Source: Pocillopora damicornis (taxonomy: Eukaryota). Taken from it: a stretch of DNA of 64,000 nt. The stretch is taken from assembly GCF_003704095.1 (NCBI RefSeq), contig NW_020844765.1, forward strand, positions 1 through 64,000. The letters run 5' to 3'. The position numbers were made by a program. The first letter of the stretch is position 1. Every line of letters begins with the position of its first letter. Positions 4,801 to 10,800 of this stretch are shown here, piece after piece.

Positions 4801-7800
4801 TTCCTCTGGGGGGTGATGTGCAATTTTCAAGAAGAAAGCATGGCGGATGATCACGGGTAAAGTCGATGTAATTCAGCTAGGACAGTTTTTTGTCGACAAT
4901 GTCGGAATTCGCGCAAATATCACGCTTTAAAGAAGAAAATAAAAAGGTAAGGGCAGAATTATAGACTGCAAAAGATAATAATGCGTTCATTTTAAATAAA
5001 TTTTCGAACTATCATTTTAGGCTTTGCTGGAACGCCAACAACGGCTGCTCACGTGGTATGGAATTTACAAGACACTTTCCTTATTCGGGACTCTTTTCAC
5101 TGGTTTGACTTCTTCTACGCGATTTTGTGCATATATGTATCAGGGTTGTGATCAATTTTTTTTATATGTCATGCAGTGAGAGATTCAAGGAAGACTATGA
5201 AAAACTTGAGGCTCTATTGCAGACTCTTCCAAACAAAACATCCCACGAGGTTATGGTGAGTTTTGGTCGTGGAAGGGGAGGAAGCGTTTGAATATCGTAG
5301 TAAAGTTTTAAATTCTTTGAAACCACGGGAACAAGGATCTCTAGTCCATTAAGTACACACCTCATTGACTTGCACTCATACCTGTACCTCAAGCAAAATT
5401 TATAGAAACCCGAAGAAGCACTCTATATTTAACAAGGTAATTTGGTATTATTAACTAAGTTAATAACATAGATTGGCTATGGTTAAGAGTGTCAAAGCTG
5501 ACTTTTTGAGCGTTAGCCCCGTGTCTTTTGCTCTGATAAAGGGCTAATGCTTGAAACATCAGCTTTGAAAATCTTTACAGTTGCCAGTTTATGTTATCAA
5601 CTCAGTTGATGAAACAAAATTACCTTGTTATACTCTCCCATCGACACAGCGCAACAGTCTTTTTAGGAACTTACCCCCCTTTTTACTTTATTTTGTGGTT
5701 TGCTCATGCTTTTCAGAGTGTATGAATTAGGCTATTCATAGAAGAGACATTCATTTTCTCAGCAGCTCTTAGGCTTCTAAGGGTATTGATGGGGTTAATG
5801 CATGCAAGTCCTAAGGTTACATTTACTCTGACAACAGAATGTTAGGTGAAAATGATATAGACTATGATGAATTTTAAAAAAAAAATAATTTTGTCATCAG
5901 GTTCCATTTGGATCTGTGGCTTTTATGCCAGGAAGACTTATTCACACTAATGAGATTATAGTGCTTCTTGGAGACAATTGGTTTGCTGAGCGTTCGGCCA
6001 GTCAAGCTCTTGAAATGGTGGAGAGACGAAAAAAATGTACTGTCTTTAACTTCATGTACATGGTAATGTTTTGTGATGATGGAGGACTCGTAGAAAATTG
6101 CATTTTGTCAGTCTTGCTTTTTATTTGGTCTGTATGTGAGCTGGGATGTTGCATGGATAGGTATATACTGTATTTCTCTTTAAACCCTTAAACTTCCAGA
6201 AGTGATTCACATGCAACTTCTCCCTACAATATCCATACAATACCCAGCAAGCGGGTAATGAGAATACTCAAACTGATCTAACACCAAACTTGATCTAACA
6301 CCAAATTCTTGTAACTAATTTATATGGAAATGTCTAGCAGCTAGAGAGAAGAATTAACAAACAGATCTGGTGAGTTAAAGGGTTAATGATTTTGTGGTGC
6401 ATTTGGAGTTGTAAAGGACTTGGTGCTATAAGGTCTTTATGGTTTGATGATGACTTTGTAAGGATTTAGCCAACAGAAGGTTTTGCACCTAATGATGTTT
6501 GGTCTGATGAACTGAAAACCATTCAAATTTATTGCTCAACTGAAAAGTGTCATTTTCTTATATGGGTTACATAAAGATACATAAATGTGCCATCCAAGTG
6601 TGTTTTTAGTTCACAGTATAAGTGAAACCACTTTATACGCTTAACCCTTTAACTCCAGGAGTGACCAAGACAGAATTTCTCCCTACAATATTAATACAAT
6701 ATGAATCAGGCAAGGAATGAGAATAAAGAAAAATATCAATTAAGTGACTATATGTTAATTCAAATCCAAATTCTCTAAAGTAACATCATAATTATTATAT
6801 AACAGACAGTAAGGAGATTTTCTAATGAGATCATGGGTTAAAAATTTTATATTATTTTTTTTTAACTGGTCTATCTCAGAAGGAGATTAACACAACATTG
6901 TTTTGTTTCTTCTTTTGGTATATTTGTATCAGTTTGTTTAGATCAAGACCAAATTATGCCATGCAACTCCTAGAGGCTTCACTCGCATGTATTTACGACG
7001 ATCTTTCCTTTGTTAGATCTGGAGAAAAATATTGCTGGGATTAAGGAAGACTTGAAGAATTTTGAATCAGCAGTAAACTTTGCCTCAGAAATTCAGTCCA
7101 TTGCAGAGGTAAAGTGCAATAATTTATACACTTAAAAATTACATTGAGATGTTATTTTATTGAGTAAATATTAAGATGCAGTGCTAATTCAGTGGAACTT
7201 GGATATGGTAAAGTCTTTGTGGGAAAATACATGTTTATTGCATACAGGTAGGTTGCATAATTTAATGATGACAAATATTTCCATGCTTATCCTGAAATTC
7301 AGTGTTGAACTGTTCACATTCTGAAAATTATGCAACATTAATACTAGCTGTTTTGCTCAAATAGCCATTCTATCTCTGTGAATAAACAATAAAAATAAAT
7401 TAGTCTGAGGAAATTGTGCTAGAAATGCATGAAATTTTTCCTTTCACTTATTATGGTTTCTTAGGAAAATGCAGATGTAAGAGAAATCAAAGAAGAGCTT
7501 TCATCACAAGAGGAGGAGAGATTTTCAAGTGAGATTTTTTTCTTGTTTTTTTTTCTCAAGAAACTTCTATATTCATTTTTAAACTTAACCCTTGAACTCT
7601 CAATGTGATTGTTAACCCTTTAACTCCCACAATCTCATTAGTAATTGTCCTTACTTTCTGCTATACAGTTTTTTTGATGTTAGTTTGGAGAATTTGATAT
7701 TGGATCAACTTATAATCCCCTAATTGATATTTTTATGTATTTATTCTCATCACTTGTCTGCATAATATTGTGTTGATATTGTAACGAGAAATTCTCTCTT

Positions 7801-10800
7801 GGTCACTCATGGGAGTTTAAGGGTTAATCTCCCCTCTAGATGTTACACATTTCCTGTTGAATTAGTTATAAGAATTTAGTGTTAGATGATAGTAACACCT
7901 TCTGTGTGATAAGTTTCAGTATTCTCATTAACTGTTTGGTGGATAATTTTTGGATCTCATAGGGAGAAATTTCATCTTTTAAAACCAATTCTGGGAGTTA
8001 AAGAGTTAATTTGAGAGCTGTTGATAAAAATAAGTTTTACTTATTTGATGGGGCTGGAATATTTGAATTCCACTGGTTCACAAATTGGGATTACGAGAGG
8101 GGAGTCTATTTCAAATGCACCCCATGATACCTTCTCAGTTACACCTTTGATTAAGTGAAACTTGAAATAAGCTTCACTCTTTAACCGTCAGAAAGTGATC
8201 AACTTGTAACTTCTCTTTGCAATTCCAATATGTTACCTTGCAAACAGGTGAGGAGAGTAGCAGTGATTTCCAGCAAGAGGGTGCCATGTTATCATTACAC
8301 CAAATTTTACTGTCTAATTTACAAGGAACTGTACAGTAGGTAGTAGGGAGACTTGAGGTGGATGACTTTATGATGAGGTTCTAAAGATTTAACCCAGAGG
8401 GCACATATTGTACCCCATGTTGGTGTGGTCTGATGAACTGAAAGTCAGAAAATAAACCTGGATGAAAATTATTTATATCATGCCAGTAGGTGGGCAGGAA
8501 TTTGTAATGTCATGGTTGACTCTTGCTTGCTTTTTGTTTAGAAGTCACTCTTTTATTTATTGGTAGCTCATCATTTACGAAAGGCACACCCTAAGGCTGA
8601 AAGATTTGGTGGTACGAAGAAAGTTCAAGGACTTAAGAGTGATCAAAAGGATACAATAACAATGAAAGGAAATAAGGTACAAAAAGTGTCTTCAGAAGAC
8701 TTGTCTTTGCTTGCAAGACTAGATGAACTGGAAGAAAAGGAAACTAAGAATGCTGAACTAGACCAGGTTGGGAAGGATGATTCTGGTGATGAAAAAAGCA
8801 TAACCACAGGTGAACACACAAACATACAAGGAGATGCAAGATGGGGACTTCATCATAAAGACAAAACAAATGAAACCAAAAAGAAAGTTACTTGGGAGAT
8901 ACATGATGTTAAGGATGAGACTGTGGTAAGCTCAACGGATTCCACTACAAGTGAGGATGATGATGAGAATCATGATAGTGATGATTTACAGACCACAATT
9001 TCAGTCAAGTTTAGCTCTTCATCAGAGCACTCACAAGGGAAGGTTAGTATAAGTTTTTATTGTACTGTGTTGATGTTTAAATACCTGTTATCACTTTCAT
9101 TCCAGAGATCTAAATTTCAATTCTCTACATTGAGCTGTACATTCATACAATTTTTAGCTCTGAGTATTGTGTTAAATCTGATGGTATGCACTACCTGATA
9201 TGTTTCTTACTTCTCAACATCCTTCTGCCTGCAACTTTATCGAAATTGCAAGGGGAAATTCGGTTTTTGTTACACATGAAATTGAAAGGGTTAATATACA
9301 ATGATAATGATAATGATGTACAGTGTAGCACTCCGATTACAAGTACAGTGTAGTGCTCTAACCACACACTCATGTTGCCTCTTGAGTTGGTATTTGTATT
9401 GAGAGGAAAAGATGTAAAAAATCTAATTGTTCTGACCTTATGCTATACTGGAGTTGGTGCTTTGACTTTGATTAAATTATTTTCTCATATCTTGCAGTCT
9501 CCAAAGGATTCTTGTGAAGAACTTACTGTTACAAGCCCAGCAGACATCTACTCACAGTTTGCTTCTAAAAAAGAGTTAAAATCCATTTTGAGAAGGCCTT
9601 CTGCTGAAGAAAAAGACAAAAAAAACTTTGAAGAAGAGAAATCTGTTACTACACAGCAATTTCCTTCTGATATTGTCAAAGATAACACGCAGATAGCAGA
9701 CTTTGACTCTCAGAAGGTTAGTTGGATCAATTGGAGCAGTTGGGAGGGTGTTAACTCTTTAGACTTAACATCATAATGCATATTCTTCATACTGTTCTCT
9801 ATACATTTCCTAGGTTCAAACAAGGAGAATTTGTAAAACCATCACAAGCTTTGTTATTTGCCAATCATTTCCTTTAATTTGATACCTTAATTTGATTCAA
9901 GGGATAGATTGTAAAGAGAAATTAGAACCTTGTCACTCTGTGGGATTAAAGGGTTAAACTTTTAATGTTTTATTGTTCAGTGGTAAATGAGCTCATACAC
10001 TGGGAGATTGCACAGTTAATTCAGAAAAGGGTAGGAATACAGCCTACAGAGGTTATGGTACATCTTGCATCAGTACATGATTCAATTTTCAAAAGGTTTA
10101 CTGTTATGAAATTTCCTTCCACTGCAAAAGGGCTGGGCAAATTGATGGATCCAGTCCCTTCACACCCTCAGTGTGAAGGGACTGGATTTACATGTGAACC
10201 TGTGCTGGGGCAGTTATGCATGACACAATTTTCACAGTACCCTCTCCACCCAAGAGTATAAAATGGTATTGGTGAGAATGTGTGCATGTGTGTGTGGGGT
10301 GGGGGGAGGAAGGGAGGTGGAACTGGGGGAGGGGAGTGGAGGATGTAATGTTATTCCCAGTTGACTCATTCTACACCAAGTGAAAGAATCATCTACGGAC
10401 TCTATGGGGTTAAGTTTTTACAGCTGGCACATGTAAGTGATGATGTGTACTTGCCTGGTTTAATGATGATTCAATTCCATGCTTATGCTGAGAACTTTGA
10501 TATGAGTTCAAGGCAGATATTCTTGATTCTGAAAACCAAGCACCAGTGTTTCTAGAACCATGGTTTTGTGATGGATGACTAAAGAACTAAATCTTAATTT
10601 TCCTTGCCAATATGTTGGTTTGTTGAAGTGCATGTTTTTAAGTATGCATTGATACCAAATTTCTAACTTACTTTTTTTGCCTGTACCTTGATCAGGCATT
10701 TACAGGGAGTATAATTGAAAAGCCTGCTGTGCAGATGATCAGACAAGAGAGTTCTCACTTGCAGGTATGAAAATATTCTTCTTTTGTCAGGAAGAATGGG

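What the first reader, a model, noticed from the sequence alone, without database searches (positions are those of the whole stretch)
6439..10538. URI1 is a multi-snoRNA host: four C/D-box candidates in A-B-A-B order
Seen: introns 4, 5, 6 and 8 each hold a 73-85 nt element with box C, box D and its own terminal stem. Guides are conserved pairwise while stems and spacers differ, which indicates selection on the guides after cis-duplication. Known: URI1 belongs to the prefoldin-like module of PAQosome/R2TP, which chaperones snoRNP and RNA polymerase assembly. I do not recall URI1 as a snoRNA host in vertebrates. Inference: co-expression of an assembly factor with its client RNAs.
Basis: partly seen in the sequence, partly recalled or inferred. 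Interest (0 to 1): 0.7.

Follow-up and report, generated by a model that had tools for sequence, protein, structure and literature searches.

The report
Four intronic snoRNAs in coral URI1

Summary
A strict box C/D scan of all 64 kb, both strands, finds four loci only. All four lie on the + strand, each in a different intron (4, 5, 6, 8) of one gene. No shuffle of 200 reaches four. The gene is the URI1 orthologue of a pocilloporid coral.

The elements form two pairs, A1/A2 and B1/B2. Boxes and one guide are identical within each pair. Terminal stems keep pairing through double changes, and flanks are at background identity. That pattern is what purifying selection on duplicated snoRNA genes would leave.

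Family B carries, next to box D', a guide that matches the Rfam consensus of snR53/snoR53 at 11 of 12 positions. snR53 directs yeast 18S Am796. The scores are far below Rfam's gathering score. Family A matches no Rfam family beyond the boxes.

Expression, cross-species conservation and the coral's own rRNA targets could not be tested here. My verdict is new members of a known kind, of modest interest.

The parts
4899..11046 (+). URI1 orthologue (unconventional prefoldin RPB5 interactor), coding exons about 4899-4946, 5021-5053, 5170-5260, 5898-6036, 7017-7108, 7465-7528, 8567-9042, 9498-9716, 10696-10764 and 10981-11046
   Evidence: Pfam Prefoldin on the exon-4 translation, E=3.4e-10. The same exon is 98% identical to 'unconventional prefoldin RPB5 interactor 1-like [Pocillopora verrucosa]'. 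tblastn of that protein gives the exon map. Splice sites were read from the sequence.
6439..6522 (+). snoRNA A1 in intron 4. Stem 6439-6445 / 6516-6522; box C 6447-6453; conserved block 6458-6473; D'-like CAGA 6474-6477; C' TGATGT 6493-6498; D guide 6499-6511; box D 6512-6515. It lies 402 nt from the 5' splice site and 494 nt from the 3' splice site.
   Evidence: Rfam gives only generic C/D matches (best snoR64, 22.7 bits against a gathering score of 45).
7252..7336 (+). snoRNA B1 in intron 5. 12-bp stem 7252-7263 / 7325-7336; box C 7265-7271; D' guide 7272-7291 (conserved core 7279-7290); box D' CTGA 7292-7295; C' TGTTGA 7303-7308; D guide 7309-7320; box D 7321-7324. It lies 143 nt from the 5' splice site and 128 nt from the 3' splice site.
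   Evidence: Rfam snoR53 28.1 bits (gathering 70) and snoU6-53 16.4 bits (gathering 36), with the match concentrated in the guide.
8363..8447 (+). snoRNA A2 in intron 6. Stem 8363-8368 / 8442-8447; box C 8370-8376; conserved block 8379-8394; D'-like CAGA 8395-8398; degenerate C' TGTTGG 8418-8423; D guide 8424-8437; box D 8438-8441. It lies 834 nt from the 5' splice site and 119 nt from the 3' splice site.
   Evidence: Rfam gives only generic C/D matches (best snoR38, 17.2 bits against 45).
10452..10542 (+). snoRNA B2 in intron 8. Core stem 10456-10461 / 10533-10538, extended to 10452-10454 / 10540-10542; box C 10463-10469; D' guide 10470-10487 (conserved core 10475-10486); box D' CTGA 10488-10491; C' TGATAT 10498-10503; D guide 10504-10528; box D 10529-10532. 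The core lies 739 nt from the 5' splice site and 157 nt from the 3' splice site.
   Evidence: Rfam snoZ266 30.1 bits (gathering 43), snoR53 29.1 bits (gathering 70), snoU6-53 23.2 bits (gathering 36).

Best explanation
[quoted passage not shown] They belong to two families with two paralogues each.

Mechanism, inferred from what is established for the class and not shown here:
- Each element is transcribed as part of the URI1 pre-mRNA.
- The C/D kink-turn next to the terminal stem recruits SNU13, NOP58, NOP56 and fibrillarin.
- After splicing and debranching, exonucleases trim the intron down to the protected particle.
- The guide directs 2'-O-methylation of the target nucleotide paired to the fifth guide position upstream of box D or D'.

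Family B uses its D' guide (core TTCCATGCTTAT, window 7279-7290 and 10475-10486). I read it as the coral counterpart of yeast snR53 / plant snoR53, which directs the 18S methylation at yeast Am796 and Arabidopsis Am801. I put that reading at about 0.6. The D guides of B1 and B2 have diverged from each other.

Family A uses the D guide TGGTCTGATGAA (window 6500-6511 and 8426-8437). It should methylate a U in a target that reads as the complement of the guide. The target itself is not identified. From memory, a conserved large-subunit rRNA segment fits over 10 bp, but this is unverified.

I see no need for a special link to URI1 function. Housekeeping genes tied to ribosome or RNP biogenesis are the usual animal hosts.
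For: - Box C, box D and a flanking stem occur at four loci only, all sense and intronic in one gene. No shuffle of 200 reaches this count.
- There is one element per intron.
- Terminal stems are kept by double changes. In pair A, 2 of 6 comparable pairs changed on both sides and none is broken. In pair B, 2 of 11 changed on both sides and 2 are broken in the outer part of the longer stem.
- Within pair B, box C with its 5' linker (11/11), the guide core (12/12), box D' and box D with its neighbours (10/10) are identical. The 25-nt and 37-nt stretches between D' and D do not align.
- Within pair A, an 18-nt block of guide plus box D is identical. The only two differences in the 13-nt D' block are A/G transitions, and either base could pair with a target U.
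- Flanks are at background identity.
- The three best-folding elements form the terminal stem in the minimum-energy structure, with z-scores of -1.6 to -1.95.
- The family B guide matches the snoR53 consensus UCCAUGCUAAUC at 11 of 12 positions. B2 also has the same 6-nt spacing from box C. Both copies carry U, as snoR53 does, and not the G of snoU6-53, just 5' of CCAUGC.
- snR53 is assigned to yeast 18S Am796 (table passage of PMC5199042).
- That site is listed for Arabidopsis, tomato, tobacco, yeast and Ostreococcus (section 6 of PMC11542601).
Against: - There is no expression evidence of any kind.
- No Rfam family reaches its gathering score over the whole window. The snoR53 matches are 28-29 bits against 70, with E of 0.6-1 in a 4.4-kb search.
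- Both B guides differ from the snoR53 consensus at the position next to the methylation site (U for A). This is harmless only if the coral 18S carries the matching A, which I could not check.
- A1 folds no better than shuffles (z 0.08). It also sits 494 nt from the 3' splice site.
- The C' and D' boxes of family A are degenerate. Its D' region is shifted by 2 nt between the copies, so that half may not guide anything.
- Gene conversion between paralogues could mimic some of the conservation.
- Conservation in other species was not testable with the collections open here.
Confidence: 0.78

Rival explanations
1. Some or all of the four are decaying or silent snoRNA copies. These would be paralogues left by intragenic duplication or snoRNA mobility that no longer give stable particles, with the functional copies lying elsewhere in the genome.
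For: A1 lies far from the 3' splice site and folds no better than shuffles. The C' and D' boxes of family A are degenerate. The D guides of B1 and B2 share nothing. No Rfam gathering hit was found.
Against: All four keep perfect C and D boxes. Their stems were repaired by double substitutions. The guides are identical between copies whose flanks are randomised. No poly(A) tail or target-site duplication is visible at the ends (reading).
Confidence: 0.12
2. Family B guides methylation of U6 snRNA at the position targeted by mgU6-53/MBII-28, not of 18S rRNA.
For: B2 and B1 also match Rfam snoU6-53 (23.2 and 16.4 bits, gathering 36), through the shared CCAUGCU.AU core. For B2 the E-value is lower than for snoR53, 0.086 against 0.63.
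Against: The bit scores are lower than for snoR53. Both copies have UU, not the family's UG, just 5' of CCAUGC, and the spacing from box C fits snoR53. From recall only: U6 is nearly invariant there, and it would leave a mismatch beside the target nucleotide with only about 7 contiguous pairs.
Confidence: 0.08
3. One reading: the arrangement is selected because it couples expression of a PAQosome subunit to its snoRNP clients.
For: The PAQosome contains URI1, and R2TP assembles box C/D snoRNPs (abstract of PMC6926247; passages of PMC9406135). Four snoRNAs sit in one host.
Against: No test was possible. The same review says the non-R2TP subunits' function is mostly unknown and ties URI1 to RNA polymerase transport. 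Host genes of snoRNAs change over evolutionary time (passage of PMC2655684). None of the six tested guides pairs with the host pre-mRNA better than chance.
Confidence: 0.12
4. The elements are chance motif combinations or pieces of the interspersed repeats that fill these introns.
For: The introns are full of repeat copies. Relaxed criteria give scattered noise hits across the window.
Against: No shuffle of 200 reaches four loci. None of the four overlaps a repeat family or inverted-repeat arm listed for 4800-11200. The guide cores occur nowhere else in the window, apart from one 1-mismatch 12-mer with no boxes nearby.
Confidence: 0.02

Closest known systems
snR53 / snoR53 (Rfam RF00338), guide for yeast 18S Am796 and Arabidopsis 18S Am801
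   Same: Both are box C/D RNAs with the guide on the D' side. The guide is identical at 11 of 12 positions, and B2 has the same distance from box C. Applying the fifth-nucleotide rule to the guide predicts the same methylated A.
   Different: The scores are 28-29 bits against a gathering score of 70. There is one change next to the target position, in both copies. The second half of the RNA is unrelated. The coral copies are intronic in a protein-coding gene. The site has no human counterpart in Table 2 of PMC11542601. None appears between Um586 and Am1061 in the Drosophila 18S list (passage of PMC11014333).
mgU6-53 / MBII-28 (Rfam RF00377)
   Same: It shares the CCAUGCU.AU core upstream of a CUGA box D'.
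   Different: The scores are lower (23.2 and 16.4 bits against 36). The base 5' of the core and the spacing also differ.
Animal protein-coding genes that host several box C/D snoRNAs, one per intron (from recall: NOP56, ribosomal protein genes and translation factor genes)
   Same: There is one snoRNA per intron, in sense orientation, with paralogous copies in neighbouring introns. The host is linked to RNP biogenesis.
   Different: My searches found no report of URI1 as a host. Distances to the 3' splice site are 119-494 nt, longer than the roughly 70-80 nt that I recall as typical of vertebrates.

Membership tests
box C/D snoRNA (class) | Box C RUGAUGA near the 5' end and box D CUGA near the 3' end | tested here: met
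   All four have ATGATGA and CTGA.
box C/D snoRNA (class) | Short terminal stem bringing boxes C and D together | tested here: met
   Stems are 6-12 bp. Pairing is kept by double changes in 2 of 6 (A) and 2 of 11 (B) comparable pairs.
box C/D snoRNA (class) | Internal C' and D' boxes | tested here: inconclusive
   Family B has an exact CTGA D' and C' boxes one or two letters off consensus. Family A has CAGA as D' and a degenerate C' in A2.
box C/D snoRNA (class) | Guide of 10 nt or more, complementary to rRNA or snRNA, ending at box D or D' | not testable with these tools
   No coral rRNA or snRNA sequence was on hand. The only support is indirect, through the snoR53 consensus.
box C/D snoRNA (class) | Stable ~70-100 nt RNA bound by fibrillarin, NOP56, NOP58 and SNU13 | not testable with these tools
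   No expression data are available.
snR53/snoR53 (RF00338) | Score at or above Rfam's gathering score (70 bits) | tested here: not met
   29.1 bits (B2) and 28.1 bits (B1). No gathering hit in the window.
snR53/snoR53 (RF00338) | D' guide for the 18S site of yeast Am796 | tested here: inconclusive
   11 of 12 positions are identical to the family consensus guide in the right register. Whether the one difference matches the coral 18S is unknown.
mgU6-53 (RF00377) | Score at or above Rfam's gathering score (36 bits) | tested here: not met
   23.2 bits (B2) and 16.4 bits (B1).
URI1 (host gene) | N-terminal prefoldin domain and orthology to named URI1 proteins | tested here: met
   Pfam PF02996, E=3.4e-10. 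82 proteins had E<=0.001 among 85 candidates. Most of those that carry a source name are called unconventional prefoldin RPB5 interactor or uri1; others are unnamed or labelled hypothetical. Every coding exon of the P. verrucosa protein maps onto the window.

The most novel reading that the evidence does not exclude
Family B would show that a cnidarian keeps the 18S methylation guide known from fungi, plants and a green alga. That site is absent from the human and Drosophila maps I saw, so it would be ancestral to animals and lost in bilaterians. Family A would direct a methylation with no counterpart in the tables of model organisms that I read. Hosting of both families in URI1 would be conserved among cnidarians and would tie the dosage of a PAQosome subunit to that of its snoRNP clients.
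Probability: 0.1. Interest if true: 0.5.

Novelty: new member of a known kind. Interest (0 to 1): 0.3.

Why it matters
My literature searches turned up no catalogue of cnidarian snoRNAs. These four loci are clean, testable candidates for annotation.

If family B is confirmed, one rRNA methylation shared by fungi and plants would also be placed in an early-branching animal.

The host-gene link to the PAQosome is a curiosity. It would matter only if the arrangement proves conserved or regulatory.

Tried and rejected
- **Rfam at gathering scores.** The whole window gave 0 hits.
- **Rfam at lax thresholds on A1 and A2 alone.** Only generic C/D matches appeared, with no shared family apart from snoR38 at 14.9 and 17.2 bits.
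- **Whole window at E<=5.** The only C/D hits were to B1 and B2. The rest were hairpins and chance matches.
- **Introns 1-3 (4700-6320).** No snoRNA-like hit.
- **A fifth snoRNA.** The weak SNORD42 match at 9403-9462 (22 bits against 39) and the relaxed hit at 9061-9188 lack a proper box C, so I rejected both.
- **Guide pairing with the host transcript.**
  - The family A D guide is complementary to exon 7 at 9018-9029 with one mismatch.
  - A run of 9 pairs or more is expected 0.10 times per shuffled pre-mRNA, and 9% of shuffles have one.
  - G-U-tolerant matches at two 3' splice sites are at chance level.
  - I rejected this as insignificant.
- **The 1-mismatch copy of the B guide at 25092.** It has no boxes nearby.
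- **Literature search for the predicted target motifs.** It found 3 papers. I opened one, where the match was a GST primer, and judged the other two unrelated from their titles.
- **Literature search for cnidarian snoRNA catalogues.** No catalogue naming URI1 was found.
- **Supplementary tables.** These were closed. Those of the Drosophila map (PMC11014333) and of snoRNA host-gene surveys could bear on whether URI1 hosts snoRNAs elsewhere.
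Full report
**Where we are.** The window is not human. The translation of one exon (5892-6035) carries a Prefoldin domain (Pfam PF02996, E=3.4e-10). It is 98% identical to 'unconventional prefoldin RPB5 interactor 1-like [Pocillopora verrucosa]' and 89% identical to the Stylophora pistillata protein. In that search 82 of 85 candidates passed E<=0.001. I take the source for a pocilloporid coral.

I mapped the named P. verrucosa protein onto the window by tblastn. This gave ten coding exons between 4899 and 11046 on the + strand, and I read the splice sites. 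The N stretches (listed) were left alone.

**The observation.** I wrote a strict scan for box C/D architecture: [AG]TGATGA, then CTGA 50-115 nt later, with a contiguous stem of at least 5 bp flanking both boxes. Over 64 kb and both strands it returned four loci and nothing else:
- A1 6439-6522
- B1 7252-7336
- A2 8363-8447
- B2 10456-10538

All four are on the + strand, and each sits in its own URI1 intron (4, 5, 6 and 8). Dinucleotide shuffles of the window give 0.43 loci on average, and none of 200 reaches four. At stem >=6 the mean is 0.17, again with none of 200. At the loosest setting, stem >=4, 4 of 200 reach four.

**Anatomy of family B.**
- The terminal stems are long: 12 bp in B1, and 6 bp extendable to 9 with one mismatch in B2.
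- Box C is followed after 8 nt (B1) or 6 nt (B2) by UCCAUGCUUAU, whose first base is the second U of the 12-nt shared core.
- One more base and an exact CUGA box D' follow.
- A near-consensus C' box comes next, then a second guide of 12 nt (B1) or 25 nt (B2), and box D.

**Anatomy of family A.**
- The stems are 6-7 bp.
- Box C is followed by a conserved block (TAAGGATTTAGCC in A1, TAAAGATTTAACC in A2).
- After that block come a CAGA that could serve as D', a C' box (good in A1, degenerate in A2), a 13-14 nt D guide ending in TGGTCTGATGAA, and box D.

**Evidence of selection between paralogues.**
- Element identity is 71% for A1/A2 and 61% for B1/B2.
- The 100-nt flanks are 47-56% identical under the same global alignment.
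- 959 random pairs of 85-nt intron pieces give 49.5 +/- 3.5%, with a maximum of 61.8%.
- In pair B the similarity is confined to box C with its linker (11/11), the guide core (12/12), D', and box D with its neighbours (10/10). The stretch between D' and D does not align.
- In pair A an 18-nt block of guide plus box D is identical. The two differences in the D' block are A/G transitions, which would both still pair with U.
- Terminal stems differ between copies, but pairing is kept. G-C and T-A in A1 become A-T and C-G in A2, which is 2 of 6 comparable pairs with none broken. Two A-T pairs in B1 become G-C in B2, which is 2 of 11 comparable pairs, with 2 pairs broken further out.
- This is what purifying selection on duplicated snoRNA genes looks like. 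Gene conversion cannot be excluded for the identical blocks, but it would not explain the compensatory stems.

**Family assignment.** Rfam gives no hit at gathering scores. At lax thresholds both B copies match snoR53 (29.1 and 28.1 bits, gathering 70) and snoU6-53 (23.2 and 16.4 bits, gathering 36). B2 also matches snoZ266 (30.1 bits, gathering 43) through box-proximal letters.

These scores prove nothing by themselves. The alignments, however, show where the signal lies: the family guide UCCAUGCUAAUC against UCCAUGCUUAUC/G in the coral, in the same register to D'. B2 also has the same spacing from box C. Just 5' of CCAUGC both copies have U, as snoR53 does, and not the G of snoU6-53.

What the literature says about the snR53 site:
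- snR53 is assigned to yeast 18S Am796 (table passage of PMC5199042).
- Table 2 of PMC11542601, in section 6, which I read in full, lists the site for Arabidopsis (Am801), tomato, tobacco, yeast and Ostreococcus, with no human counterpart.
- In the Drosophila 18S list, of which I saw a passage, no site lies between Um586 and Am1061 (PMC11014333).

I therefore read family B as a coral counterpart of snR53, at about 0.6. The single difference lies next to the target position in both copies. It predicts a matching A in the coral 18S, which I could not check.

Family A matches only generic C/D features. Its target is unknown. A fit to a conserved large-subunit segment rests on my memory alone and is not written out.

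**How it most likely works.** Nothing here was shown directly. By analogy with the class, the elements are co-transcribed with URI1. They would be bound at the C/D kink-turn by the core proteins and released by splicing, debranching and exonucleolytic trimming. They would then guide fibrillarin to the nucleotide opposite the fifth guide position.

Three of the four lie 119-157 nt upstream of the 3' splice site, and A1 lies 494 nt upstream (and reading).

The PAQosome does contain URI1, and R2TP does assemble box C/D snoRNPs (abstract of PMC6926247; passages of PMC9406135). The same review states that the function of the non-R2TP subunits is mostly unknown and ties URI1 to RNA polymerase transport.

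I looked for a direct link in the sequence, namely guide pairing with the host pre-mRNA. One 11-of-12 match of the A guide lies in exon 7 (9018-9029). It is at chance level once shuffles and the six guides tested are considered. Host genes of snoRNAs are known to change over time (passage of PMC2655684). The co-expression idea is therefore neither supported nor excluded.

**Novelty.**
- The search URI1 + snoRNA + host gene found two papers. I read the passages and both are unrelated.
- The search C19orf2 + snoRNA held eight papers, of which seven were listed. None points that way by title or abstract start, and I saw the listing only.
- The cnidarian searches gave no snoRNA catalogue naming this gene.
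- These are new members of a known kind.

**What stayed unchecked.**
- Expression.
- The coral's own rRNA and snRNA targets.
- Conservation in other cnidarians.
- Supplementary tables of the cited papers, which were closed.

Noticed in passing
window 10146-10190 (intron 8 of URI1, about 260 nt upstream of B2): A perfect 20-bp hairpin with a 5-nt loop (-39.8 kcal/mol, z -5.7). It gives sub-threshold miRNA-precursor matches on both strands. It could be a small inverted-repeat element or a hairpin RNA.
   Followed up: partly
window 5430-5519 and 5541-5630 (intron 3 of URI1): A 90-nt inverted repeat, 79% complementary, with arms 21 nt apart. It gives a generic plant-miRNA-precursor match far below gathering (40.8 bits against 249). 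It looks like a foldback element.
   Followed up: no
window 6183-6390, 6654-6837, 7612-7825, 7903-7975, 8188-8259: URI1 introns 4 and 6 are filled with direct and inverted copies of one interspersed repeat, 68-84% alike. The four snoRNA candidates lie between the copies, not inside them.
   Followed up: partly
window 1634-4320 (+) and about 4640-4770 (-), next to the N runs at 2233-2545, 2813-2912 and 4528-4627: Protein-kinase-like ORFs upstream of URI1 contain the same peptide stretches twice (around 2546-2760 and around 3100-3330). A further copy of the first kinase-like exon lies inverted just upstream of URI1 (ORF translations, sequence). This is either a local duplication or an assembly artefact around gaps. 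The ORFs were not searched against any library.
   Followed up: no
window 48365-48450 and 45892-45975: Two near-perfect long hairpins (-54.9 and -54.6 kcal/mol, z -14 and -7.5). They match miRNA-precursor models on both strands, below gathering (46.2 bits against 90 and 31.3 bits against 76). They are probably palindromic repeats.
   Followed up: partly
window 38754-38799 (-): A match to the histone 3' stem-loop model (24.3 bits against 34, E=0.02). No histone-like ORF lies beside it and the fold is unremarkable. It is probably chance.
   Followed up: yes
window 9018-9029 (exon 7 of URI1): This stretch is complementary to the family A guide at 11 of 12 positions. It is at chance level given the shuffles and the number of guides tested.
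   Followed up: yes
window about 4791-4807: An oligopyrimidine-rich tract about 95 nt upstream of the URI1 start codon. It recalls the 5'TOP starts of vertebrate snoRNA host genes. The transcription start is unknown.
   Followed up: no
window about 8880-8955 (exon 7): The window encodes 25 residues that are missing from the P. verrucosa protein model P0002 (gap in the tblastn alignment). Part of this stretch is present in the Stylophora protein as printed in the same call. It is a gene-model or splicing difference.
   Followed up: no
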